From assembly GCA_963674595.2 (NCBI GenBank), contig CAXXFV010000023.1, positions 1-64,000 of the forward strand: a stretch of DNA of 64,000 bases, in the 5' to 3' direction. Below, in pieces: positions 1-12,635 of the stretch. Positions within the stretch are counted from its first letter, which is position 1. Every line of letters starts with the position of its first letter. The position numbers and the translations under genes are program-made. Under the pieces are notes generated by a model, which saw only the letters and a program-made list of their open reading frames with translations, made no database searches and was not told the origin of the DNA. This stretch comes from a bacterium. GTDB lineage: Bacteria; Zhuqueibacterota; Zhuqueibacteria; Residuimicrobiales; Krinioviventaceae.

Positions 1-1233
1 GATAATCAGTCCAAAAACCACAACCAGCAGCGATGCCCAATGTGAAATTTTTACAGTTTCCTTGTCTGTTGCCGTGGATTTAAAATAGGGCTGCCAAATA
101 TCCCTGACTATAAATGACGCCCCGCTGTTGACAATGGAACTGAATGTGGACATGAAGGCGGCCAAAAGTCCCGCAATAACCAGTCCGCGTATACCGTTTG
201 GCAAATATGTTAACAGAACAATCGGCATCACTTTTTCCGAGTCGGTAACTCCGGTAATGCCGGTTAAAGCAAGCAGGGCAATACCCATGGTCATGGCCCA
301 GCGAACGATCAGGAAAAAGCTCCAGGCTGCGCCAACTTTGGATGCGTCTCTGGCATCTCTTGTGGCCAGGAACCTTTGGAAATCATACATTTGTGCAGGT
401 CCGCCCGCGTTTAACAACAGACCTTTGAATACCCATACCATGACCAAGGCTCCGAAAAATTCAAATTCAGCGTGTGCCGTATTTGAAAATTCATGAATAT
501 GCCACGGCACCTTTAAGGAGGTCCAGTTTTGCGGCAGGGAAGATAACAGCTCCGGCGAGAGTTCTGACCAGGCGATATAGGCAATAAAAATGCTTCCCAA
601 TGTGAGGATCAGTGTTTGAATGACGTCGGTAAATACCACACTATAAAGTCCGCCGACAACAACATATAATGTTGTGATACTTATGATGAGAATAGCCAGA
701 ATATCCGGCTGATGGTTTTGAATAAAATTTGATAAAATTGAAAGGGGAATTATTTTTACCAGGGGATCAAGAGAGATATATACCGACGCGAATTTACCGA
801 TACCCTGATAAGCATAACCGATAAAACTGGCCAGGGTGAGGACCGCCATAATGGCATAAGCTGTACGTGCCAGTCGGCCTCCGGTATCGTCTCCAAAACG
901 TGTTTTCATCCATTCTGCCGCCGTCATCACATTGGAACGGCGCACCCATTTCCCCATATAGGCCATAAAAAAGGCAGCCATATAAACACCCCACATCCAG
1001 TGGTGCCACATGGATTTCATACCCAGAACAAAAAGAATGGAAACAATCCACATGGTACCGGTAATGTCAAATGTGGAAACCGAACCGGACATGGCCAACG
1101 GCAGCCAATGCAGGTTTTTTCCGCCCAGAAAATAGTTGTTGAGACTTATTGATGCACGTTTTTGGAACCAAAAACCGAGGCCGATAACCAGAATAAAATA
1201 GACGAAAATAATCGAATAATCAACAGGGACCAT
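1..1233 (-). CDS. Sodium:solute symporter (SSS) family protein, truncated by the window edge
   Basis: Not in the ORF track because it runs off the edge. Read manually from ATG at 1233: MVPVDYSIIFVYFILVIGLGFWFQKRASISLNNYFLGGKNLHWLPLAMSGSVSTFDITGTMW, a typical SSS N-terminus (YFLGG..L.W), followed by hydrophobic segments. Confidence 0.88.
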   Translation of the reverse strand, partial: MVPVDYSIIFVYFILVIGLGFWFQKRASISLNNYFLGGKNLHWLPLAMSGSVSTFDITGTMWIVSILFVLGMKSMWHHWMWGVYMAAFFMAYMGKWVRRSNVMTAAEWMKTRFGDDTGGRLARTAYAIMAVLTLASFIGYAYQGIGKFASVYISLDPLVKIIPLSILSNFIQNHQPDILAILIISITTLYVVVGGLYSVVFTDVIQTLILTLGSIFIAYIAWSELSPELLSSLPQNWTSLKVPWHIHEFSNTAHAEFEFFGALVMVWVFKGLLLNAGGPAQMYDFQRFLATRDARDASKVGAAWSFFLIVRWAMTMGIALLALTGITGVTDSEKVMPIVLLTYLPNGIRGLVIAGLLAAFMSTFSSIVNSGASFIVRDIWQPYFKSTATDKETVKISHWASLLVVVFGLII

Positions 1234-1549
1234 ATTTTTTGCTCCCTCATTTTAACAGGATAGTTTGTTGTTATTTTTTCCAATCTTTGCAAGTCTATCC
1301 ACTTGTCGTCGTAATATTGTTGATGATAGACAAATGTTTAAGAAAATGCAACAGAATTTTCCTGTTTTTTGTTGAATCTTTTTGAAAATTAGCGCATCCA
1401 ATTAGTCTCGGAATAGTGTAACAAAAATCGTGAAAAAGGAAATGGTTTTTACTGAATATGAAACAAGAGTTGTTACCATAATAGTTTAATATCTGGTTTC
1501 TTTCCTTTTTATTTAACAATTTTTAATTTTTGTATCGTAAAGGAAATTT

Positions 1550-2971
1550 ATGTCCATACGAAAAATTTTGCCATTATTGTTATCGATAATTGTTCTGACC
1601 ATATCGGTTTTGTTTGTTTTCCTTTGGCCTGAAAAAAAGATCGATGATCCCTGGGCAAAAGTCGCAAAAAAAACAGAACATACAAATCATTCTGAATTGT
1701 TAAAGGGCCCATTTAAAGACGGACCTTCCGTGACCAAGGCTTGTTTACAATGTCATGAGGAATCCGCTCATCAGGTCATGAAAACAGTGCACTGGACATG
1801 GGAGGGAGAGCCGGTAACCTTGCCAAATCGTCAAAATCCGGTACGCCTGGGAAAGAAAAATGCTATTAATAATTTTTGTATCGGCATTCGCTCCAATTGG
1901 CCGCCGTGCACAGCCTGTCATGCCGGTTACGGTTGGGAAGATGAAAAGTTTGATTTTACTCAAGAATATAATGTTGATTGTCTGGTTTGCCATGAGCACT
2001 CCGGGACTTATGTAAAGTCCCTGGGCGGTCTGCCGGCAAAAGATGTCGATTTGGAAAAGGTTGCCCAAAGCGTTGGTCTGCCGACACGGGAAAATTGCGG
2101 CAGTTGCCATTTCAGGGGCGGCGGCGGAAATGCCGTTAAACACGGCGATTTGGACGGCAGTTTATATCACCCAACGGACCGTATTGATGTTCATATGGGA
2201 AAACATGGATTTGTTTGCACCGATTGCCATACGACTATCGACCATCAGATTAAGGGGCGGGCTATTTCCGTTAGTTATGAGGACAAAAACCAGGTTTATT
2301 GCACCAATTGTCATGATGGTCAGCTTCACAAAGACCAGCGTATCAATGCGCATGTCGCTACTGTTGCCTGTCAAACATGTCACATCCCGGAAGGTGCTGT
2401 TAAAGAAGCTACAAAAATGCATTGGGATTGGTCTACGGCCGGTCAGGACTTGCCGCAGGACCCGCACAAATATCTAAAAATTAAGGGCAGTTTCGTATAT
2501 GAAAGCAATTTCCAACCCAGCTATTTTTGGTATGATGGAAAAGCAGACCATTATTTGTTTGGCGACAAGATGGACCCAAAAGAAACGACATTGTTAAATG
2601 ATCCTCAAGGTGATATTCGTGACCCAAAAGCCAAAATATGGCCTTTTAAAGTTCACACCGGTAAGCAAATTTACGATAAAAAATATGAATATTTTTTACA
2701 GCCCAAGACATTTGGGAAGGACGGTTTTTGGACGGAATTTGATTGGGACAAAGCAGCGAAATTAGGCAGCGAAACAACCGGTCAAAAATACAGTGGTGAA
2801 TTCGGTTTTGCTCCCACGGTTATGTTCTGGCCGCTGACTCATATGGTTGCGCCAAAAGAAAAAGCCCTGCAATGTGTTGACTGTCACGGTGATTCAAAAG
2901 CAACACGCATGGATTGGAAGGCATTAGGATACGATGGTGACCCAATGTATACAGGTGGACGAAAATTATGA
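1550..2971 (+). CDS. otr: Octaheme c-type cytochrome, tetrathionate reductase (Otr) family
   Basis: Eight CxxCH motifs (CLQCH, CTACH, CLVCH, CGSCH, CTDCH, CTNCH, CQTCH, CVDCH). Also HWTW, GKKNAINNFC, CHAGYGW, KHGD and the C-terminal DWKALGYxGDP typical of Otr. N-terminal membrane anchor. Confidence 0.9.
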   Translation: MSIRKILPLLLSIIVLTISVLFVFLWPEKKIDDPWAKVAKKTEHTNHSELLKGPFKDGPSVTKACLQCHEESAHQVMKTVHWTWEGEPVTLPNRQNPVRLGKKNAINNFCIGIRSNWPPCTACHAGYGWEDEKFDFTQEYNVDCLVCHEHSGTYVKSLGGLPAKDVDLEKVAQSVGLPTRENCGSCHFRGGGGNAVKHGDLDGSLYHPTDRIDVHMGKHGFVCTDCHTTIDHQIKGRAISVSYEDKNQVYCTNCHDGQLHKDQRINAHVATVACQTCHIPEGAVKEATKMHWDWSTAGQDLPQDPHKYLKIKGSFVYESNFQPSYFWYDGKADHYLFGDKMDPKETTLLNDPQGDIRDPKAKIWPFKVHTGKQIYDKKYEYFLQPKTFGKDGFWTEFDWDKAAKLGSETTGQKYSGEFGFAPTVMFWPLTHMVAPKEKALQCVDCHGDSKATRMDWKALGYDGDPMYTGGRKL

Positions 2972-5631
2972 TTTGGAAAAGAATTTTATATACGAACATA
3001 TTAATTTTATTAATATCGACAATTTTGACGGCCCAGTCCTCAATGCACCCTGTTTTTCCGCTTAAGGACAAAAATAATATAAATGTCTTAAAATCCGGCG
3101 GACCGGTATCAACCTATAAAACCTGTGGCCAATGTCATGATTCACAGTTTATTGCCACCCACAGTTTTCATAGTCAGGCCGGGTTGGAGGATATTACAAA
3201 AACAGATTCCGGGAAATATGACCGGTCCTGGGATTATGGTTCAGGTCCATTCGGGCAATGGAACCCGTTTTATTACCGTTATTTAACATTAGACGATAAA
3301 ACAGCACCAGACATGGGTGTACCGGATTGGGTACAGGTTTACGGCGTCCGTCATGCCGGTGGCGGACCGGCAGAGTTTGAACAGCTTTTATCTATCGAAC
3401 CTGCGGCAAAAACCCTTGACCCGAATACCGGGGCCTGGAAAGAATGGGACTGGAAAAAATCCGGTAATGAGGAAATGAACTGTTTTTTGTGTCACACAGG
3501 CAATCCCAATAATACGGATCGGATCCACGAAATTCAGCAGGGGAATTTTCAATGGGCGGCAACAGCGACACTTTCCAACACCGGTGTTGTTGAAAAGACC
3601 AAAGGAGAATGGCGTTATCAGAAAAATGCTTTTGATGCGTACGGTAATGTTAAAAAGGAATTGTTACCCATTAAAGATCCGAGTAACGAAAACTGCGGGC
3701 AGTGTCATGGCCTTGTACATTCTGATAACAAGCAGCCCCTGGTTTTTGATGATTTTTCCTTTTCGTCCTGGAGTACTTTGACGACAGGACAAGTTTTTTC
3801 CGCTCAAAGAATTTCCGATTCAGGACTGAATCTGCATAATAAAAAATCACTGGATCGATCATGGGACGTTCATACTGAACGGCTGCTGGATTGTGTCGAT
3901 TGCCACTATTCAGTAAACAATCCGATTTATTATCAGGAAGCGGCAGATACCAGACCGGACCATTTGCAGTTTGATGCCCGTCGTCAGGATTTTTCCGACT
4001 ATGTATATCGTCCCAGCCATCAATTTGCATCCGGACGATTTGATCATAACGAAAATTATGGCATGGATGTGTCCTCAATGCGCAGTTGTGAATCCTGTCA
4101 TGATATGTTGTCTACTCATAATTGGCTTCCATACAAGGAAAAGCATGTCCAAAGTATGACCTGTGAGGCCTGCCATGTTCCTCAGGTAAATGCGCCTTCG
4201 CAAAAGGTTTTGGATTGGACATTGATTTCACCCAATAGCGAACCTCGTGTTGAGTTTCGCGGTATTGATGAACCGGTTGTGAAAAGTAACACCTTTATTA
4301 AAGGTTATGAACCGGTCCTATTGCCGAGAAAAGAAAGCGACGGACGTTTCAAGCTTGCACCTTATAATCTTGTAACAACCTGGTACTGGACAACCGGAGA
4401 CCCGGAACGACCTGTACGCTTCTTTGATTTGAAAAAAGCCTTTTTAGAAAATAATAGTTATCATACAGATATTGTGAAAGCCTTTGATGCTGATCATGAC
4501 GGCAATCTGTCCGAAACAGAAAAAAGACTGGACACTCCATTAAAAGTCAAGACAGCGATACAAAGGCTGCAAGCTGTAGGTGTTGAAAATCCGGTCATAC
4601 GTGGCGACGTCCAGCCCTATGCCATTCATCATAATGTCGCTGAAGGTGAATTTGCCACACGTGACTGTGAAACCTGTCATAGTCAGACTTCGAGAATATC
4701 CCAGTCTTATGAACTGGCCGGATTTGTTCCCCTGACGGGAGAAAAATCAAATTTTATTTCCAGCTTACCGGTCAAATTCTCGGGTAAAATTAAAATAGAT
4801 GATTCACGGAAAATGATTTACAAACCTGTCGTCCGTTCAGACGGATTTTATGTACTCGGGCATGATAAAGTAATTGCTGTACAATGGATCGGTGCGTTGA
4901 CGGTCATTTTTGTTTTAATCGGTATTTTGATTCATGGTGGTTTGCGAATAAAATATACCCGAAGATTGAAACAGAAAAACTTTTATTATAAAAATATTTA
5001 TTTATATCCTATTTATGAGAGATTTTGGCACTGGCTGCAGGCCTTTACCATTATTGGTTTAATTTTTACGGGTCTGGTTATTCATGCTCCCGATGTTTTC
5101 AGCTTTTTGAATTTTGCTCCGGCGGTTATTATACACAATATGCTGGGTTTTATTTTGTTGATTAATGCGTTTTTTGCTGTTTTTTATTATGTCACCAACG
5201 GAAAGATATTCGGCTTTCTACCGGAACCGCAGGGATTTTTTAATCAGGCAATTCAGCAGGCAGAGTATTATTTACGAGGAATTTTTAAAGGAAAACATCA
5301 CCCCTTTGAAAAAAATATAAACAGGCGCCTGAATCCATTACAAAAAATCACCTATTTACTTATTTTGAACGTTTTACTGCCTTTGCAGATCATTTCAGGC
5401 ATTTTAATTTGGGGAGCACAACGATGGCCCCATGTTGCTGAAAATTTAGGCGGTCTGGGACTGCTGGTGCCGTTTCATTCTTTAATTGCCTGGTTTTTTG
5501 CAGCATTTTTGATTATGCATATTTACCTGGCTACAACCGGACATAAACCATTGACCCATATCCAGGCAATGGTAACCGGTTGGGAAGAGGTCGTTGTGAA
5601 AAATGGAAAGGAAACCAAAGATGAAAAGTAA
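2968..5631 (+). CDS. Heptaheme Otr-paralog cytochrome c fused to C-terminal di-heme cytochrome b (PhsC/FdnI/HyaC-like)
   Basis: Signal peptide and seven CxxCH motifs. C-terminal membrane domain has ERFWHW, IHNMLG, NPLQK and FHS...MHIY (four b-heme His). ATGA overlap with the otr stop codon. Confidence 0.87.
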   Translation: MIWKRILYTNILILLISTILTAQSSMHPVFPLKDKNNINVLKSGGPVSTYKTCGQCHDSQFIATHSFHSQAGLEDITKTDSGKYDRSWDYGSGPFGQWNPFYYRYLTLDDKTAPDMGVPDWVQVYGVRHAGGGPAEFEQLLSIEPAAKTLDPNTGAWKEWDWKKSGNEEMNCFLCHTGNPNNTDRIHEIQQGNFQWAATATLSNTGVVEKTKGEWRYQKNAFDAYGNVKKELLPIKDPSNENCGQCHGLVHSDNKQPLVFDDFSFSSWSTLTTGQVFSAQRISDSGLNLHNKKSLDRSWDVHTERLLDCVDCHYSVNNPIYYQEAADTRPDHLQFDARRQDFSDYVYRPSHQFASGRFDHNENYGMDVSSMRSCESCHDMLSTHNWLPYKEKHVQSMTCEACHVPQVNAPSQKVLDWTLISPNSEPRVEFRGIDEPVVKSNTFIKGYEPVLLPRKESDGRFKLAPYNLVTTWYWTTGDPERPVRFFDLKKAFLENNSYHTDIVKAFDADHDGNLSETEKRLDTPLKVKTAIQRLQAVGVENPVIRGDVQPYAIHHNVAEGEFATRDCETCHSQTSRISQSYELAGFVPLTGEKSNFISSLPVKFSGKIKIDDSRKMIYKPVVRSDGFYVLGHDKVIAVQWIGALTVIFVLIGILIHGGLRIKYTRRLKQKNFYYKNIYLYPIYERFWHWLQAFTIIGLIFTGLVIHAPDVFSFLNFAPAVIIHNMLGFILLINAFFAVFYYVTNGKIFGFLPEPQGFFNQAIQQAEYYLRGIFKGKHHPFEKNINRRLNPLQKITYLLILNVLLPLQIISGILIWGAQRWPHVAENLGGLGLLVPFHSLIAWFFAAFLIMHIYLATTGHKPLTHIQAMVTGWEEVVVKNGKETKDEK

Positions 5632-6133
5632 ACCCTATTTAAATCCATACGTGGCCGGCGTTTTATTGGGGATTGTGCTTTTTCTGGCTTTTTTTATAAC
5701 CGGTAACGGATTGGGCGCTTCAGGTGGCTTGAACCGTATCATTGTGGCCGTTGAAGATTTTTTCGTCCCCAAACATGTTGACCAGACACCCTATCTTTTA
5801 AAAATGGCCGGTGGCGATAAAAATCCATTGGACCATTGGATTGTTTTTTTAACAATCGGCACCGTTATAGGCGGATTTTTTTCCGGTTTGGTTCATAAAA
5901 GAGTTCGATTTGAAACCGGTAAAGGACCGAATATATCAGTTAAAACACGCTGGCTTTTGGCATTTATCGGCGGCACTTTGATGGGATATGGCGCCCGGTT
6001 TGCCCGGGGCTGTACTTCCGGTCAGGCGCTGTCCGGCGGCGCTGTGCTGTCAGTCGGAAGCTGGGCGTTTATGTTTGCGGTTTTTGCCGGTGGTTATGCT
6101 CTGGCCTATTTTTTTAGAAAAGCATGGAATTAA
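5621..6133 (+). CDS. YeeE/YedE (sulfur transporter) family half-protein
   Basis: PYLNPYxAG, GLGASG and GARFARGCTSG motifs; hydrophobic. The ATG at 5621 follows AAGGA and overlaps the upstream gene end. Confidence 0.88.
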   Translation: MKSKPYLNPYVAGVLLGIVLFLAFFITGNGLGASGGLNRIIVAVEDFFVPKHVDQTPYLLKMAGGDKNPLDHWIVFLTIGTVIGGFFSGLVHKRVRFETGKGPNISVKTRWLLAFIGGTLMGYGARFARGCTSGQALSGGAVLSVGSWAFMFAVFAGGYALAYFFRKAWN

Positions 6134-6148
6134 CATAAAGGATAGACA

Positions 6149-7372
6149 ATGAATTTTTTTCCAATAATTGATCAGTTTGGACATTTGGCAAGTTATATAA
6201 TTTATTTGTTTATCGGGATCGGATTTGGTGCTGCGCTTGAAATGGCAGGATTTGCCAATTCTCCCAAACTGGCTGCACAATTTTATCTGAAAGATATGAC
6301 AGTCCTGAAAGTCATGTTTACGGCCATAATAACCGCAATGGTTTTGGTATATCTGGCAACTAGTTTTCTTGTTTTGGATATCGACCAGGTCTGGATTAAT
6401 CCAACCTATTTGTGGCCGGGGATTGTCGGCGGCCTGATAATGGGTTTTGGTTTTATTATCGGAGGCTTTTGTCCGGGTACATCACTGGTTGCCTTGGCGA
6501 CACTAAAGCTGGACGGCATTTTCTTTGCCTTGGGTGCATTTTTTGGTATTTTTCTGTTCGGTGAAACAGTCGGCTTTTTTGAGGGATTTTGGAATTCCAG
6601 TTTTATGGGGCGTTTTACCTTGTATGAATGGTTTGGTGTTGATGCCGGTGTTGTTGTTTTTGCCGTCAGTATTATGGCATTGTTCATGTTCTGGGGTGGT
6701 GAAAAACTGGAACATATTTTTGGAGATATAAAAAAATCCGGTAAAAAATTTAACTATTTGGGTGCAATTACGCTTTTGGTTTTGGCCGGTTTGGTTATGG
6801 TTGTCGGCCAGCCTTCGTTACAGCAAAAATGGAGCAAAATTGCTATTCAAAAGCAAAATTTGCTGATAAACAGGGATGTCTATATACATCCGGGTGAATT
6901 GTTGACGTTGATGAATAATGATGATATAAATTTAATCATGTATGATGTGCGTCCGGAAAAAGACTATAATATGTTCCATCTTTTGGATGCTAAAATGATT
7001 CCGGACTTGACAACTCCAGGGCTTTCCCGGCAATTAAAAAATTTGCCGGTAAACAGCCTCATCGTTGTTATGGGAAATGACGAACAAACTGCCACGGAGG
7101 TTTGGAAACGAATGGCGGCCATGCGCGTTCCCAATACTTATATTTTGGATGGCGGTATTAACAATTGGCTCAATATTTTCGGACATGAAGGACATGAAGA
7201 TTGTCCTGCTACTGAAAGCGGCAACAATGAAAACTTTGTTCACGTTTTTCCTTCCGCACTTGGTGACCGGAATAAATCTTCTGCCCCGATGCTTGAACAT
7301 TTTAAAGAGATTCATTTTCAACCAAAAGTAAAAATTCAAAAACAATCCAAAAAGCAGGGAGGGTGCAGTTAA
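6149..7372 (+). CDS. YeeE/YedE half-transporter fused to rhodanese-like domain with C-terminal GGCS
   Basis: N-terminal GFG..LE.AGF and GGFCPGT motifs. Rhodanese hallmarks DVRPEKDYNMFHL and YILDGGINNW. Protein ends KVKIQKQSKKQGGCS*. Confidence 0.85.
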   Translation: MNFFPIIDQFGHLASYIIYLFIGIGFGAALEMAGFANSPKLAAQFYLKDMTVLKVMFTAIITAMVLVYLATSFLVLDIDQVWINPTYLWPGIVGGLIMGFGFIIGGFCPGTSLVALATLKLDGIFFALGAFFGIFLFGETVGFFEGFWNSSFMGRFTLYEWFGVDAGVVVFAVSIMALFMFWGGEKLEHIFGDIKKSGKKFNYLGAITLLVLAGLVMVVGQPSLQQKWSKIAIQKQNLLINRDVYIHPGELLTLMNNDDINLIMYDVRPEKDYNMFHLLDAKMIPDLTTPGLSRQLKNLPVNSLIVVMGNDEQTATEVWKRMAAMRVPNTYILDGGINNWLNIFGHEGHEDCPATESGNNENFVHVFPSALGDRNKSSAPMLEHFKEIHFQPKVKIQKQSKKQGGCS

Positions 7373-7493
7373 ACAGAGCTTTATTTAAAATACATTTTAC
7401 ATTATTGTTTTTCACTTGCCATTTTGATAATATGTTTTAAATTATCAGAACACAATATTTATTCTGTATTTAAATCATTACGAGAGGTGAGGA

Positions 7494-9281
7494 ATGACAA
7501 AAAGTTTTACATTTATATTTAAATTGATGGTACTTTTTTTTATATGTCCCTCTTTATTACATTCATCAGAACAATCCGATAGTTCTGCCAAGTCTTCAAT
7601 AAGTATAAAACTCGTTAAAGATAATTTTATTACAATTTCCAACAAGGAACACAAAAACAACAGGATCGGTTACCGGTTTTTTGAACATGAACCTGTTGTT
7701 TTTGGCAATGTTCCACTTTCTGCTTCCGAAGCAAATATTGATCTTGATTATATCCGGAATGTAGAAAATAGTTTTAAAAATCGCACCGATGTTTTTGTTT
7801 ATAAACACCAAATTGACAAAGATGAACATTGGGTGGAACAAACCTGGACTTATTATATGGTGCCGGTTTCGGATGGTATTGAAATTTATCTTGTCGTAGA
7901 AACCGGTAAGGAAGGACTTGCCGAATACTATGGTATTCAGCAATGTTTTCGTTTAAGCGGAAAAACAAATGAACAATGGCGTCGGGAAATAGCGGAAACA
8001 CCGGCGTTTAGTGAATATGATTTATGGAAAAAATCGCAAAAAAGTTTAACATGGGTCCTTCGTAATAATGAATGGCAGTCCCTGCCGGCTGGAAAAGATG
8101 CTGTCGGTGCGCGAACACCCCTGGGTTTGGCAATCGATGATTTGACTTATAATGTGGAAATGCCAAAAAATATTGGACCTTATGATGCGCTGATGCTGGC
8201 CCCGGTTGATAACGGTTTGATTGTTCGTACGGATATTGATGAGAATTATGTGTGTGGTATTTACTGGAACAGTACGTCGCATGTTACAAATCATCATCCT
8301 GCTGATTGTTTACACAGTGTTGTAAATATCGGAAACGTACCGCCCTTTTCAAAACGAATGGTTCAGGGGAAGATTTATTGGCTAAAGGGGAATAAACAGG
8401 ATCTGTTGACCCGCTATCAAAAGGATTTTCAAGATTCCAAAAAAGGTACGTTGCGTGTTGCCGCCTGCCAGTTTTCTGTTGCCGCCGGTATTACGGATAA
8501 CGCTGAATGGATAAAAAAGCAAATGAAACATGCACGATTACAAAATGTGCAGTTAATCCAGTTTCCGGAAGGGGCCCTGTCAGGATATGCCGGTTCTGAT
8601 CTGTCTACGTTTGAAGGTTATGACTGGTCTTTGTTAAAAGAAAAATCCCGGGAAATAGCCGCGTTGGCTAAAGATTTAAAAATGTGGGTTTTACTTGGCA
8701 GTACCCACCACTTGTCAGATGGAAACAAACCTCACAATTCTCTTTATGTTATTACACCCGAAGGCAAAGTCCTTGACCGGTATGACAAAAGATTTTGTAC
8801 GGAAAGTGATTTAAAATATTATTCACCCGGAGATCATTTTGTTGTGTTTGATGTAAATGGTGTAAAATGCGGACTGTTGATATGTTATGATATCCGTTTC
8901 CCGGAACTATATCGTCAGTACAGTGTTTTAGGCGTTAATGCAATTTTTCATTCATTTTATAATGCCCGGCACAAAGAAGATTGTATTCATCCGAAAATTA
9001 TGCCCATCACAGGTCAGGCCCGTGCCGCAGAAAATGGTGTTTATGTGTCTTTTACAAACTCCAGCGCCCCATATAGCTGGCCGTGTCATTTTATTACACC
9101 GGACGGTATGATCCAGAAAAAGCTGATAAGAAATATACCGGGTATATTAATTTTTGATATTGATTTGTCAAAAAAATATTATGACATCAGCGCTCCGTTT
9201 CGGCTGGATGCCATTAAAGGCAAGTTAAACAGCGGCGATACAGTGCAGGATCCCCGGTCAGACAAGCGAAACGAATTTTAA
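7494..9281 (+). CDS. Carbon-nitrogen hydrolase (nitrilase superfamily) with an uncharacterised ~310 aa N-terminal domain
   Basis: C-terminal half has VAACQ, FPEG, YDK and ICYDIRFPE (Glu-Lys-Cys triad). N-terminus looks like a signal peptide. Confidence 0.82.
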   Translation: MTKSFTFIFKLMVLFFICPSLLHSSEQSDSSAKSSISIKLVKDNFITISNKEHKNNRIGYRFFEHEPVVFGNVPLSASEANIDLDYIRNVENSFKNRTDVFVYKHQIDKDEHWVEQTWTYYMVPVSDGIEIYLVVETGKEGLAEYYGIQQCFRLSGKTNEQWRREIAETPAFSEYDLWKKSQKSLTWVLRNNEWQSLPAGKDAVGARTPLGLAIDDLTYNVEMPKNIGPYDALMLAPVDNGLIVRTDIDENYVCGIYWNSTSHVTNHHPADCLHSVVNIGNVPPFSKRMVQGKIYWLKGNKQDLLTRYQKDFQDSKKGTLRVAACQFSVAAGITDNAEWIKKQMKHARLQNVQLIQFPEGALSGYAGSDLSTFEGYDWSLLKEKSREIAALAKDLKMWVLLGSTHHLSDGNKPHNSLYVITPEGKVLDRYDKRFCTESDLKYYSPGDHFVVFDVNGVKCGLLICYDIRFPELYRQYSVLGVNAIFHSFYNARHKEDCIHPKIMPITGQARAAENGVYVSFTNSSAPYSWPCHFITPDGMIQKKLIRNIPGILIFDIDLSKKYYDISAPFRLDAIKGKLNSGDTVQDPRSDKRNEF

Positions 9282-11795: not shown

Positions 11796-12635
11796 ATGAA
11801 ATCCGTGCATTTTAAATTCAGAGGATTCGTTTCACTTTTGTCCACGTTTACATTTTTAATTTCTCTGGTGTCCGGTATTGTTTTGTATTTTGTTCCCCAG
11901 GGCAAAGTTGCAAATTGGATTCACTGGACGTTTTGGGGACTGGACAAGGACACATGGGGCGCTTTGCATATCAATTCGTCGTTGATATTTTTTATCATCA
12001 TTTTTTTCCATATTTTTTATAATTGGAAAATTCTTTTAAATTATTTTAAAAATAAAGTAAAAGGTGTTTTTAAACTAAGATTGGAACTTTTGTCTGTAAC
12101 AATTTTTTCATTGTTTATTGTACTTGCGTCTTTGTATGATTTGCAGCCTTTTGCTAAAGTTATGTCCTGGAACGAAGACATTAAAGATTATTGGGCCGGC
12201 AATGCCGATTCTCAACCACCTGTTCCGCATGCGGAACAGATGAGTGTAACGGAATTTTGTCAACAGATCAACATTCCTGTTGAGCGTTTTGTAAATCGGA
12301 TGAAAGGTGAGAATTGGGTCGTTCAGGATACAAGCCAAACTATAAAGGAAATTGCCGAATTAAATGATATTGCTCCGGCTGAGATATTCAAGGCTGTTAA
12401 TCTGGCGACCGGATCACCGAGCAGCTCGGGCAGCGGCTGGGGCCGAAAAACTGTTGAACAGGTATGCAGCGAATATAATATTCCTGTAAACGATGCTCTG
12501 GATCGTTTAAAAACTCAAAATATGACGGCAGAGTCAAAAGATGTCATTCGCGATATTTCCGGTAAATATAACCAGCGTCCTGTTGATGTTGTGAATACAA
12601 TTACCGGTCAAACCGTCGATTCGAATCATGAATAA
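11796..12635 (+). CDS. DUF4405-domain membrane protein with repeated C-terminal helical module
   Basis: SGIVLYFVPQG, FWGLDKDTWGALH and FHIFYNWK are DUF4405-like. The C-terminus has two similar ~55 aa units. Confidence 0.75.
   Translation: MKSVHFKFRGFVSLLSTFTFLISLVSGIVLYFVPQGKVANWIHWTFWGLDKDTWGALHINSSLIFFIIIFFHIFYNWKILLNYFKNKVKGVFKLRLELLSVTIFSLFIVLASLYDLQPFAKVMSWNEDIKDYWAGNADSQPPVPHAEQMSVTEFCQQINIPVERFVNRMKGENWVVQDTSQTIKEIAELNDIAPAEIFKAVNLATGSPSSSGSGWGRKTVEQVCSEYNIPVNDALDRLKTQNMTAESKDVIRDISGKYNQRPVDVVNTITGQTVDSNHE

What the first reader, a model, noticed from the sequence alone, without database searches (positions are those of the whole stretch)
1550..7372. Self-contained candidate sulfur-oxyanion respiratory/sulfur-relay module: Otr + Otr-paralog-cytochrome b + split YeeE + rhodanese-GGCS
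Seen: four tightly coupled genes (overlaps at 2968-2971 and 5621-5631, then a 15-bp gap). They encode an octaheme Otr, a heptaheme-plus-cytochrome b fusion, and two YeeE/YedE halves, one carrying a rhodanese domain. Established: Otr-family enzymes reduce tetrathionate, nitrite and hydroxylamine in vitro and their physiological role is debated; PhsC/FdnI-type cytochromes b exchange electrons with quinones; YeeE/TsuA proteins move thiosulfate-type sulfur species. Inference: this is a molybdenum-independent quinol:sulfur-compound oxidoreductase linked to a sulfur-transport and carrier unit. The context would argue for a sulfur substrate (tetrathionate, thiosulfate or polysulfide) rather than nitrite. 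No Mo-enzyme (TtrA/PhsA) or Fe-S subunit gene is adjacent.
Basis: partly seen in the sequence, partly recalled or inferred. Interest (0 to 1): 0.85.

Follow-up and report, generated by a model that had tools for sequence, protein, structure and literature searches.

The report
Otr cytochrome operon with sulfur-carrier arm
Four tightly packed genes join an eight-haem enzyme of still-unknown natural role (Otr) to its own membrane electron wire and to a two-piece sulfur channel carrying an outward-facing cysteine-tipped arm, which points to a sulfur substrate and makes the enzyme's role testable.

Summary
In detail: four co-directional genes at 1550-7372 encode a true Otr orthologue (8 CxxCH), a heptahaem c domain fused to a PhsC/FdnI-type dihaem cytochrome b, and a split YeeE/YedE channel whose second half carries a rhodanese domain ending in GGCS.

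The unit is conserved. Of the 80 Otr loci most similar to this one in a species-level genome collection, 54 hold the full gene order, 16 hold it up to a contig end, 8 lack it and 2 cannot be judged. Record titles name at least eight phyla.

The heptahaem domain has the Otr fold. The rhodanese domain lacks its catalytic Cys and is predicted to be periplasmic. Only two Cys are conserved in that protein, the pore Cys and the C-terminal GGC. Each of them is replaced by TGA followed by a SECIS-like hairpin in some relatives, which marks both as reactive.

Best reading: a quinol-fed periplasmic Otr acts on sulfur handled by a SoxY-like arm at the mouth of a Cys-relay channel. Substrate and direction are untested.

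My five literature searches found no description of the module. This scan has flagged the same module on other DNA (26 notes), with the same reading.

The parts
1550..2971 (+). Otr-family octahaem cytochrome c (473 aa). It has an N-terminal hydrophobic signal or anchor. CxxCH motifs sit at residues 65, 120, 144, 183, 223, 251, 274 and 442. The GKKN and NNFC segment lies at residues 101-110.
   Evidence: TIGR04315 579.7 bits against a cut-off of 375. PDB 1SP3 E 5.3e-163 over residues 47-467. Motif positions.
2968..4890 (+). Periplasmic heptahaem c domain of gene 2 (about residues 1-640). It is an Otr-fold paralogue with 7 CxxCH motifs, at residues 53, 172, 243, 309, 374, 399 and 567.
   Evidence: AlphaFold model pLDDT 83.1. 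Foldseek top hit 1SP3, E 2.8e-6. VIA-align Z 12.5, rmsd 4.0, 339 residues aligned. hhalign probability 98.1%, aligning haems 4-8. All 7 motifs are invariant in 51 sequences.
4891..5631 (+). PhsC/FdnI-type dihaem cytochrome b domain of gene 2 (about residues 642-887). One extra leading TM helix is followed by a four-helix bundle. This is the presumed quinol site.
   Evidence: PF01292 88.7 bits. Closest NCBIfam model is PhsC NF011582 at 126.8 bits, under its cut-off of 204. FdnI 1kqf_C Z 14.3, rmsd 3.5, 192 aligned. His 656, 688, 706, 723 and 778 are invariant.
5603..6133 (+). YeeE/YedE half 'A' (176 aa). It corresponds to the second half of full-length YeeE (helices H8-H13). Its pore Cys137 (GCTSG) is encoded at 6011-6013.
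   Evidence: PF04143 85.2 bits on profile positions 176-309 of 310. Adjacent to the other genes in all full modules. Cys position.
6149..6808 (+). YeeE/YedE half 'B' of gene 4. It corresponds to the first half of YeeE plus the linker helix, followed by one additional TM helix (residues 202-220). Its pore Cys108 (FCPGTS) is encoded at 6470-6472.
   Evidence: PF04143 on profile positions 12-195. Cys108 is invariant in 33 of 33 Cys-type sequences and is TGA in L060, L080, L082, L119 and L121. Loop 186-201 carries a mean of 5.2 K+R, and TM6 is hydrophobic in all 33 sequences.
6890..7171 (+). Rhodanese-fold domain (residues 248-341) without the canonical active-site Cys. Predicted periplasmic.
   Evidence: PF00581 40.1 bits. 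Model block pLDDT about 90. Foldseek hits are single-domain rhodaneses. The active-site loop reads VVMGNDE in the window, S in most relatives and C in only 2 of 33.
7358..7369 (+). C-terminal GGCS tail. Cys406 is encoded at 7364-7366. Proposed SoxY-like carrier arm.
   Evidence: GGC is invariant in 33 of 33 aligned relatives. GGCG or GGCS precedes the stop in 44 loci, and GG-TGA-G-stop occurs in 6 loci. The divergent variant modules end in GGC or GGCAID.

Best explanation
This is a conserved membrane-periplasm redox module.

Electron path (inferred from the families). Quinol is oxidised at the dihaem cytochrome b domain of gene 2. Electrons then run through its seven periplasmic c-haems, an Otr-fold domain that seems to have lost the catalytic haem, to the catalytic octahaem Otr.

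Sulfur handling (inferred from anatomy and conservation). Otr reduces an oxidised or zero-valent sulfur species such as tetrathionate, another polythionate, polysulfide or persulfide. This species is captured by, or covalently carried on, the C-terminal Gly-Gly-Cys arm of a catalytically dead rhodanese domain. That domain is tethered on the periplasmic face of a split YeeE-type channel. The sulfur product is then handed along a cysteine relay into the cytoplasm: arm Cys406, then Cys137 of half A on the outer side of the pore, then Cys108 of half B on the inner side.

What is shown: the parts, their family membership, the conserved linkage, the Otr fold of the haem wire, and the two selectively conserved Cys with Cys/Sec exchange.

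What is inferred: the periplasmic location of the arm, the direction of electron flow, the substrate, and any contact between the arm and Otr or the pore.

My odds. One functional unit: about 0.9. A sulfur-type (chalcogen) substrate rather than nitrite: about 0.65. The substrate is carried on the arm: about 0.35.
For: Otr identity. TIGR04315 scores 579.7 bits. The match to Shewanella Otr 1SP3 has E 5e-163, and GKKN and NNFC are kept.

Linkage.
- The same order and strand occur in 15 of 15 loci from the window's family and order.
- Of the 80 best Otr loci (from 370 relatives found) in genome contigs, 54 are full, 16 are cut by a contig end but consistent, 8 have no module and 2 are undetermined.
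- The phylum labels of the 54 full loci are Chloroflexota 23, Pseudomonadota 11, Bacteroidota 3, Myxococcota 3, Fidelibacterota 2, Calditrichota 1, Planctomycetota 1, Lentisphaerota 1 and no label 9, which includes KSB1.
- The link also holds from the carrier side. In 167 genomes of the phylum, 23 have a full-length gene-4 type. Of these, 20 lie beside Otr and the haem wire (3 of them split over contig breaks), and the other 3 sit on contigs that end at the gene.
- A divergent second architecture keeps the same partnership: Otr with its own C-terminal TM helix, a separate 4-TM cytochrome b, half A, and half B fused to rhodanese ending in GGC (L114-L116).

Haem wire. Fold and profile matches to Otr and FdnI.

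Arm and relay.
- Only two Cys columns are conserved in gene 4: C108 and C406 in 47 of 50 sequences, the other 3 being Sec loci that my script cut short at the pore-site TGA. Both are invariant in 33 of 33 sequences.
- TGA replaces the tail Cys in 6 loci and the pore Cys in 5 loci, in every combination.
- Hairpins with GGUC or GUU loops and compensatory stem changes follow these TGAs.
- SelB scores over its cut-off in 4 of 5 of those genomes.

Topology.
- YeeE has its N terminus outside and its C terminus inside, with two inverted halves (passages of PMC7449682).
- Gene 4 matches the first half plus the linker helix.
- A K/R-rich loop follows (mean 5.2 K+R), then one more TM helix in all 33 sequences.

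Literature context.
- 'VTIGGC' is described as the hallmark of the SoxY swinging arm, and a soxY variant lies downstream of otr in lucinid symbionts (passages of PMC11237559).
- otr transcripts rose 36-fold with tetrathionate in sediment microcosms (passages of PMC8528874).
Against: - No assay, expression data or interface supports the chemistry.
- The characterised Shewanella Otr is most active in vitro with nitrite and hydroxylamine. Its deletion gave no tetrathionate phenotype in Shewanella sp. ANA-3, whose authors suggest sulfite instead (passages of PMC12949373).
- That Shewanella enzyme belongs to a separate Otr clade without the module. Even so, its active-site segment is nearly identical to the window's, and only 4 positions separate the two clades.
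- 8 of the 80 Otr loci and 6 Otr genes in the window's own phylum stand without the module, so Otr can work without it.
- No cytoplasmic acceptor is encoded in the unit.
- The periplasmic placement rests on homology-based topology and the positive-inside rule, not on an experiment.
- The channel half of the gene-4 model is of low confidence (pLDDT 45-60).
- The 80 loci examined are those most similar to the window's Otr, out of 370 found, so the 54/16/8/2 split is not a census of the family.
Confidence: 0.5

Rival explanations
1. The module works in the oxidative direction. Otr oxidatively couples thiosulfate or sulfide to the GGC arm, as SoxAX does with SoxY. Electrons flow through the haem wire into the quinone pool, and the arm-bound sulfur is imported through the channel for cytoplasmic oxidation or for sensing.
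For: The arm is SoxY-like. YeeE-like SoxT proteins are reported to import sulfur for oxidation and signalling (abstract of PMC11582611). An ArsR-type regulator precedes Otr in 24 of the loci examined; this is the regulator family of SoxR and sHdrR (abstract of PMC12423496).
Against: The window's genome (97.6% complete) has no dsrA match; sHdr and Sox were not searched. The tetrathionate/thiosulfate couple lies at +198 mV (passage of PMC8528874). That is above quinone potentials as I recall them, so quinone reduction by thiosulfate would be uphill. The ArsR proteins have one conserved Cys (HAxxC), and I could not match them to the two-Cys sulfane sensors. The window itself has no ArsR gene upstream.
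Confidence: 0.15
2. Otr here is a nitrite or hydroxylamine reductase, for ammonification or detoxification, fed by its own quinol dehydrogenase. The YeeE pair is a co-located but chemically unrelated sulfur-uptake system.
For: In vitro, Otr enzymes show mainly nitrite and hydroxylamine reductase activity, and Otr resembles NrfA and HAO structurally (passages of PMC12949373). The active-site segment of the window's Otr is nearly the same as in Shewanella.
Against: The channel genes accompany Otr in 54 full plus 16 truncated of 80 loci, and in a second, divergent architecture. From the carrier side, all 23 full-length gene-4 types in the phylum are beside Otr or are cut by contig ends. No nitrogen-cycle gene recurred in the flanks. 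The genome has a separate, ordinary TusA plus split-YeeE set elsewhere, so a second uptake system would be redundant.
Confidence: 0.12
3. The substrate is a selenium or tellurium oxyanion rather than sulfur. Otr reduces selenite or a similar species, and the YedE-like channel with its arm takes up the reduced selenium.
For: Both channel halves give weak matches to YedE selenium-metabolism models: NF033796 at 39 bits and TIGR04112 at 22 bits. Selenocysteine is used in the module in some lineages. The window's genome has SelB.
Against: Those scores are far below the cut-offs of 350 and 200. Use of Sec marks a reactive residue, not a selenium substrate. No selD or yedF-type neighbour recurred in the flanks.
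Confidence: 0.07
4. The adjacency has no functional meaning: the genes are independent and happen to be packed together.
For: None beyond the fact that some Otr genes stand alone.
Against: Start and stop codons overlap in the window. Order and strand are conserved across at least eight phylum labels. The Otr tree groups module-type loci apart from solo loci, with 2 changes needed against a shuffled mean of 9.5.
Confidence: 0.03

Closest known systems
Octahaem tetrathionate reductase Otr of Shewanella oneidensis (PDB 1SP3; TIGR04315)
   Same: Gene 1 is a clear orthologue: E 5e-163, all 8 haem motifs, and the GKKN and NNFC segment.
   Different: Shewanella-type Otr genes form a separate clade (SH-aLRT 100). 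They are preceded by a DUF3373 protein and a monohaem cytochrome c, and have no cytochrome b fusion, YeeE pair or arm. Their proposed electron donor is CymA (passage of PMC12949373), whereas the window has a dedicated haem wire.
CbcL of Geobacter sulfurreducens (multihaem c domain fused to a dihaem cytochrome b quinol oxidase)
   Same: Same design as gene 2: a periplasmic multihaem c domain on a dihaem b membrane domain that connects the quinone pool to periplasmic acceptors (abstract and passages of PMC9129911).
   Different: CbcL has nine c-haems and six TM helices and serves extracellular electron transfer. Gene 2 has seven c-haems in an Otr-like fold and sits next to a catalytic Otr. Homology between the two c-domains was not tested.
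PhsC / FdnI / HyaC family of dihaem cytochromes b (PF01292)
   Same: The C-terminal domain matches PF01292. It superposes on FdnI (Z 14.3) and on HyaC (Z 10.7-11.4). The nearest curated model is PhsC.
   Different: It scores under the PhsC equivalog cut-off (126.8 against 204). It is fused to a haem c domain, and no molybdopterin or Fe-S partner is encoded nearby.
YeeE/TsuA-YeeD thiosulfate uptake system (PDB 6LEO, 8J4C)
   Same: Same channel family with conserved pore cysteines. Sulfur is proposed to pass along a row of Cys to a partner cysteine (passages of PMC7449682 and PMC11073785).
   Different: Here the channel is split into two genes, in swapped order. The TsuA equivalog scores are far under their cut-offs (41 against 400; 23 against 645). 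The partner cysteine sits on a fused domain predicted to be on the outer face, whereas YeeD is a separate TusA-like protein on the cytoplasmic face.
SoxY of the SoxYZ carrier (swinging arm ending in GGC...)
   Same: A Gly-Gly-Cys at the extreme C terminus of a periplasmic domain encoded next to a c-type cytochrome enzyme. 'VTIGGC' is the SoxY hallmark (passage of PMC11237559).
   Different: There is no SoxY domain: Pfam finds only PF04143 and PF00581. The arm hangs on a rhodanese fold tethered to a channel. This is an analogy, not homology.
MccA/SirA octahaem sulfite reductase systems with dedicated quinol dehydrogenase (recalled; mentioned in passages of PMC12949373)
   Same: An octahaem catalytic subunit of the same superfamily, fed by its own membrane quinol-oxidising partner, acting on a sulfur oxyanion.
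   Different: From recall, Mcc and Sir use NrfCD-type Fe-S and membrane subunits and a copper site. Neither is encoded here.

Membership tests
Otr family (TIGR04315, tetrathionate reductase family octahaem cytochrome c) | Whole-protein score over the curated cut-off | tested here: met
   579.7 bits against 375; 579.9 bits in the genome search.
Otr family (TIGR04315, tetrathionate reductase family octahaem cytochrome c) | Eight CxxCH haem-binding motifs | tested here: met
   Motifs at residues 65, 120, 144, 183, 223, 251, 274 and 442. All are invariant in 73 sequences.
Otr family (TIGR04315, tetrathionate reductase family octahaem cytochrome c) | Lysine ligand of the catalytic haem supplied from outside the haem motif (feature recalled from the 1SP3 paper, which I did not read here) | tested here: inconclusive
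   K102 and the GKKNxINNFC segment align with the same segment of 1SP3 and are invariant. Which lysine ligates the haem was not checked against the structure.
Dihaem cytochrome b, PF01292 (FdnI/HyaC/PhsC type) | Pfam score over the gathering cut-off, and a four-helix bundle with conserved His ligands | tested here: met
   88.7 bits against 30.1. FdnI Z 14.3. His 656, 688, 706, 723 and 778 are invariant in 51 sequences.
PhsC, thiosulfate reductase cytochrome b subunit (NF011582 equivalog) | Score over the equivalog cut-off | tested here: not met
   126.8 bits against 204. It is the nearest named model, but gene 2 is not a member.
YeeE/YedE family (PF04143) | Pfam score over the cut-off on both halves, with the conserved pore Cys motifs | tested here: met
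   85.2 and 40.6 bits against 27. GCTSG (C137) and FCPGTS (C108) are present.
TsuA/YeeE thiosulfate transporter (NF052577, NF041049) | Score over the curated cut-offs | tested here: not met
   41.2 against 400 and 22.6 against 645.
Rhodanese sulfurtransferase (PF00581) | Rhodanese fold | tested here: met
   40.1 bits against 22.2. Foldseek probability 1.00 to single-domain rhodaneses, TM about 0.62-0.69 on the target.
Rhodanese sulfurtransferase (PF00581) | Catalytic Cys at the start of the active-site loop (feature recalled) | tested here: not met
   The window has Gly (VVMGNDEQT), most relatives have Ser, and Cys occurs in 2 of 33 (L034, L035).
SoxY carrier (PF13501) | SoxY domain | tested here: not met
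   No PF13501 match at E 0.01.
SoxY carrier (PF13501) | C-terminal Gly-Gly-Cys arm | tested here: met
   GGCS in the window. GGC is invariant in 33 of 33. The motif as SoxY hallmark comes from a passage of PMC11237559.
CbcL-type bc cytochrome | Homology of the periplasmic c domain to CbcL's nine-haem domain | not tested
   Only the architecture was compared, from the text of PMC9129911.

The most novel reading that the evidence does not exclude
Otr is a carrier-dependent enzyme. Its physiological substrate is not a free anion but a sulfur (or selenium) adduct held covalently on the Gly-Gly-Cys/Sec arm. After reduction, the arm passes the sulfur atom to the pore Cys/Sec of the split YeeE channel. 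Respiration would then be coupled directly to a covalent, residue-to-residue transfer of sulfur across the membrane. This would explain why assays with free tetrathionate and deletions in Shewanella, whose Otr lacks the module, have not revealed Otr's role.
Probability: 0.3. Interest if true: 0.9.

Novelty: new variant of a known kind. Interest (0 to 1): 0.78.

Why it matters
The natural function of Otr has been open since its structure was solved in 2004 and was still called unestablished in a 2026 paper (passages of PMC12949373). The model organism's Otr belongs to a clade that lacks this module, which may be why the context went unnoticed.

The module is widespread. More than 5,000 protein clusters at 90% identity resemble gene 4 at E <= 1e-20, and the 120 best listed all carry both domains. 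It occurs in Chloroflexota, Fidelibacterota (Marinimicrobia), KSB1/Calditrichota, Lysobacterales and other groups common in sediments and low-oxygen waters.

If the reading holds, three things follow:
- a molybdenum-independent route for respiring sulfur-cycle intermediates;
- a new use of a SoxY-like carrier arm;
- evidence that YeeE-type channels can work by covalent Cys/Sec chemistry.

The reading yields concrete, cheap experiments: arm and pore Cys mutants, adduct mass spectrometry, and induction tests.

Tried and rejected
- Complex prediction of Otr residues 40-473 with gene 4 residues 225-407, both given as alignments, returned 'no answer' (score 0.14, mark 0.32). This is neither support nor evidence against binding.
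- The look-up of sequencing runs listed no RNA holder: 6 runs of unknown kind in 3 studies hold the DNA. I did not lay reads, so there is no evidence on expression.
- Promoter and terminator scans of 1200-7700 gave no excess over shuffles: 20 against 17.0 and 6 against 7.4. The transcription unit is therefore inferred from the overlaps only.
- Foldseek with the gene-4 model matched only rhodaneses, with no hit at E <= 0.001. The YeeE half was modelled at low confidence without its partner and found no match.
- phmmer of gene 2 against PDB sequences found nothing meaningful. The Otr relationship appeared only by fold and by profile.
- BLASTP of gene 1 against gene 2 is marginal (E 0.004).
- A search for Otr residues that separate module from solo clades gave only 4 positions, none in the active-site segment.
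- The upstream ArsR-type proteins could not be assigned to the two-Cys sulfane-sulfur sensors.
- The downstream CN-hydrolase (7494-9281) is not part of the unit: it had no match in the 15 loci from relatives.
- One NCBIfam call failed on a mis-set reference and was not repeated.
- Supplementary files of the papers were closed. Otr trees and gene tables in the supplements of PMC8528874 and PMC11237559 may show neighbourhoods that I could not see.


Full report
OBSERVATION

- Gene 1 (473 aa) has eight CxxCH motifs and scores 579.7 bits on TIGR04315, cut-off 375. It aligns with Shewanella oneidensis Otr (PDB 1SP3) at E 5.3e-163 over residues 47-467, including the GKKNxINNFC segment. It is the only strong Otr match in the 6.6-Mb genome, which is 97.6% complete.
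- Gene 2 (887 aa) has seven CxxCH motifs followed by a PF01292 cytochrome b domain. The nearest curated model is the thiosulfate reductase subunit PhsC, at 126.8 bits, below its cut-off of 204.
- Genes 3 and 4 match PF04143 (YeeE/YedE) on the second and first halves of the profile respectively.
- Gene 4 continues into a rhodanese domain (residues 248-341) and ends in QGGCS.
- The flanks hold a sodium:solute symporter, a CN-hydrolase, 6-phosphogluconate dehydrogenase, DUF4405, trehalase and GH95 genes. There is no molybdoenzyme or Fe-S subunit.

IS IT A UNIT?

In 41 genomes of the window's family and order, including the window's own, a full-length (or frame-split) relative of gene 2 was found in 18 relatives. 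I fetched 15 of these loci, and all 15 show Otr, haem-wire/cytochrome b, half A and half B-rhodanese in the same order and on the same strand. The CN-hydrolase is not conserved there.

A scan of one genome per species (genome contigs) with an Otr alignment found 370 relatives, of which the tool keeps the best 80. A tblastn with the window's proteins gave this split:
- 54 loci have the whole module.
- 16 have it in the right order until the contig ends.
- 8 have at least 3 kb of downstream sequence and no module: one Anaerolineales locus, four Shewanella and three Desulfuromonadales-type.
- 2 cannot be judged.

NCBI phylum labels of the 54 full loci are Chloroflexota 23, Pseudomonadota 11, Bacteroidota 3, Myxococcota 3, Fidelibacterota 2, Calditrichota 1, Planctomycetota 1, Lentisphaerota 1 and none 9, the last group including records titled candidate division KSB1. 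Records of genomes in the window's own family are titled KSB1, 'bacterium' or 'uncultured Cytophagia'. I therefore take the organism to be a KSB1/Calditrichota-type bacterium and treat the Bacteroidota labels with caution. These 80 loci are those most similar to the window's Otr, so the proportions are not a census.

An IQ-TREE tree of 73 of these Otr proteins (quick search) puts the Shewanella, Desulfuromonadales-type and Nitrospirota sequences in one clade (SH-aLRT 100) apart from the module-bearing ones. The 'module' label needs 2 changes on the tree against a shuffled mean of 9.5. Seven of the 80 loci were left out of this tree by an ORF-length filter. The solo clade has its own context, a DUF3373 protein and a monohaem cytochrome c upstream.

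I also tested the link from the other side. In 167 genomes of the phylum, 31 have Otr at E <= 1e-50, and 23 have a full-length gene-4 type.
- 17 of the 23 lie on the same contig as Otr.
- 3 are the same module split over contig breaks.
- 3 sit on contigs that end at the gene, with contig lengths of 2355, 4363 and 11414 bases.

Three further genomes (L114-L116) carry a divergent second architecture. It consists of an Otr (about 42% identical) with its own C-terminal TM helix that resembles the first helix of gene 2's b domain, a separate 4-TM cytochrome b, half A, and half B-rhodanese ending in GGC or GGCAID. Six other Otr genes in the phylum sit in unrelated contexts.

So Otr can stand alone. 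When the gene-4 type is present, however, it is with Otr in every case that could be judged.

THE HAEM WIRE

An AlphaFold model of gene 2, built from 51 sequences, has mean pLDDT 83.1 and pTM 0.82.
- Its best Foldseek hit in the PDB is Otr itself (1SP3, E 2.8e-6), followed by FdnI (1kqf_C).
- VIA-align gives Z 12.5 (rmsd 4.0, 339 of 436 residues, model range 24-637) for 1SP3, and Z 14.3 (rmsd 3.5, 192 residues) for FdnI.
- Profile-profile comparison of the two families gives 98.1% probability. It aligns Otr haem motifs 4-8 with motifs 3-7 of gene 2.

The N-terminal third has two motifs where Otr has three. By order, spacing and local sequence, the missing one is probably Otr's second motif, the catalytic haem. 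This is an inference, not a measured superposition. The domain looks like a duplicated Otr turned into an electron wire, and the second architecture (Otr itself anchored beside cytochrome b) looks like the simpler form. The design is the same as CbcL of Geobacter, which has nine c-haems on a dihaem b domain (abstract and passages of PMC9129911).

THE CHANNEL AND THE ARM

Full-length YeeE has its N terminus outside and its C terminus inside. Its two four-helix halves are inverted by a linker helix. [quoted passage not shown] YeeD, carrying the 'fourth cysteine', binds the cytoplasmic face (passages of PMC11073785).

- Gene 3 corresponds to the second half. It has a basic N terminus, and its GCTSG motif corresponds to the outer Cys.
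- Gene 4 corresponds to the first half plus the linker helix. Its FCPGTS motif corresponds to the inner Cys.
- In gene 4 a loop follows that carries on average 5.2 Lys+Arg, the only strongly basic loop. After it comes one more hydrophobic helix, present in all 33 aligned relatives, and then the rhodanese domain.

By the YeeE topology and the positive-inside rule, the rhodanese domain and its tail are periplasmic.

The rhodanese fold is confirmed. The position of the catalytic Cys, however, is Gly in the window, Ser in most relatives and Cys in only 2 of 33. In the whole family only two Cys columns are conserved, Cys108 and Cys406. The C terminus reads GGCG or GGCS followed by a stop in 44 loci.

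SELENOCYSTEINE IN RELATIVES

Six loci have TGA at the tail Cys position, followed by one Gly codon and a stop: L060, L065 and L080 from Chloroflexota, L071 and L084 from Fidelibacterota, and L082 labelled Lentisphaerota. Five loci have TGA at the pore Cys position: L060, L080 and L082, plus L119 and L121 from the window's own phylum. All four Cys/Sec combinations occur. No other in-frame TGA was seen in the module genes of the 80 loci.

Hairpins lie downstream of these TGAs. After the pore site the stems close GGUC loops, with a compensatory GGUAGC/GCUACC to GGUGGC/GCCACC change. After the tail site the stems close GUU or GGU loops, again with differing but paired stems. Overall folding energies are not exceptional, so the case rests on position, loop sequence and covariation. 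SelB scores over its cut-off in 4 of 5 of the first set of genomes, and the fifth has fragments. The window's genome also has SelB but uses Cys.

A 2026 review lists a YeeE/YedE selenoprotein with a GUxSG motif and a GenBank-annotated Sec form of TIGR04315. Its five rhodanese selenoprotein forms have other motifs (table passages of PMC13188914). A C-terminal GG-Sec-G form is not among the passages I saw.

Exchange of Cys for Sec at exactly the two conserved Cys marks both as chemically reactive residues. That fits a covalent relay better than hydrogen-bond guidance.

MECHANISM

The most likely working model is as follows. Quinol is oxidised at the b domain. Electrons pass through seven c-haems to Otr. 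Otr reduces a sulfur species that is captured by or carried on the arm. The sulfur product enters the cell along the path arm Cys, Cys137 and Cys108.

Tetrathionate is the obvious candidate. The tetrathionate/thiosulfate couple lies at +198 mV, and otr transcripts rose 36-fold with tetrathionate in sediment microcosms (passages of PMC8528874). Polysulfide, persulfide or sulfite are equally open. Sulfite was suggested for Shewanella sp. ANA-3, where deleting otr left tetrathionate metabolism unchanged (passages of PMC12949373).

The arm recalls SoxY, whose hallmark is VTIGGC. A soxY variant lies next to otr in lucinid symbionts (passages of PMC11237559). From memory, the periplasmic Sud protein of Wolinella is a rhodanese-fold carrier that feeds polysulfide reductase, and PhsC-type cytochromes b can use the proton-motive force to push electrons to low-potential acceptors. 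I did not check either point here.

The genome has no dsrA match. It has a separate TusA plus split-YeeE set on another contig. This argues against a simple uptake role for genes 3 and 4, and mildly against import for Dsr-type oxidation.

An ArsR-type regulator precedes Otr in 24 of the examined loci but not in the window.

RIVALS

The rivals are an oxidative SoxAX-like role, a nitrite/hydroxylamine reductase with an unrelated neighbour, a selenium or tellurium substrate, and chance adjacency. Each is weighed in its own section. None is excluded except the last.

NOVELTY AND PRIOR WORK

Five full-text searches found no paper describing Otr together with a cytochrome b fusion, a YeeE pair or a Cys-tailed rhodanese. 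The searches were:
- 'octaheme tetrathionate reductase' with YeeE;
- Otr, cytochrome b and gene cluster;
- selenoprotein, YedE and rhodanese;
- octaheme, SoxY, tetrathionate reductase and rhodanese;
- octaheme with YedE.

The hits I opened, as passages, treat Otr alone. The library lacks most subscription journals, and supplements were closed, so this is not proof of absence.

Public sources name gene-4 relatives only 'YeeE/YedE family protein', 'rhodanese-like domain-containing protein' or 'hypothetical'. No NCBIfam model reaches its cut-off for genes 2, 3 or 4.

This scan has met the module before. 26 notes in at least 25 other genomes hold the same key words, and follow-up agents reached the same reading. 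I consulted them only after my own analysis. They are not independent evidence.

VERDICT

This is a real, widespread and apparently undescribed arrangement of known parts. It gives a concrete and testable hypothesis for a long-open enzyme function. I class it as a new variant of a known kind, with interest 0.78.

Noticed in passing
L060, L065, L071, L080, L082, L084 (tail site); L060, L080, L082, L119, L121 (pore site): In relatives, the two conserved Cys of the gene-4 family are replaced by in-frame TGA followed by SECIS-like hairpins, in all four Cys/Sec combinations. Gene callers would truncate or split these genes. The window itself uses Cys at both sites.
   Followed up: yes
own genome outside the window, G000:C5:36061-37263: A second, ordinary sulfur-uptake-type set: a TusA-like gene directly followed by two YeeE/YedE half genes, without Otr or rhodanese.
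   Followed up: partly
L044, L047, L054, L058-L060, L064-L066, L071, L074-L076, L078, L080, L082, L084, L085, L094-L096, L099-L101 (mostly just upstream of Otr): An ArsR-family HTH protein of about 110-140 aa with one conserved Cys (HAxxC) accompanies the module in 24 loci from Chloroflexota, Fidelibacterota, Lentisphaerota and Myxococcota. It is absent upstream in the window.
   Followed up: partly
L114, L115, L116 (genomes G152, G103, G121 of the window's phylum): A variant module: Otr with its own C-terminal TM helix, a separate 4-TM cytochrome b, half A, and half B-rhodanese ending in GGC. It may be the simpler or ancestral form of the fused haem wire.
   Followed up: partly
L089, L098, L102, L105, L106, L107, L109: Shewanella- and Desulfuromonadales-type Otr genes are preceded by a DUF3373 protein of about 570-600 aa. 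Five of these loci (L098, L102, L105, L106, L107) also have a monohaem cytochrome c. This is a different conserved context for the characterised clade.
   Followed up: partly
window 7494-9281 (+): A 595-aa protein with a signal-like N terminus, an unassigned N-terminal region of about 300 aa and a C-terminal CN-hydrolase (nitrilase-superfamily) domain. It is not conserved next to the module in relatives.
   Followed up: no
L025-L029, L043, L055, L056 (family f2 of the order): Their gene-2 relatives are about 740-750 aa and lack roughly residues 80-165 of the window's protein. The CxxCH motifs are invariant in the three of them that were aligned (L043, L055, L056).
   Followed up: no
L033, L036, L037, L040 against L035, L041 (records of genomes in or near the window's family): Public titles disagree: 'uncultured Cytophagia' and 'candidate division KSB1' are both used for genomes that the genome collection places in the same family or order as the window. 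Some phylum labels in the tally are therefore probably wrong.
   Followed up: no
window 11796-12635 (+): A DUF4405 membrane protein (279 aa) stands alone between 6-phosphogluconate dehydrogenase and trehalase genes. No link to the module was seen.
   Followed up: no
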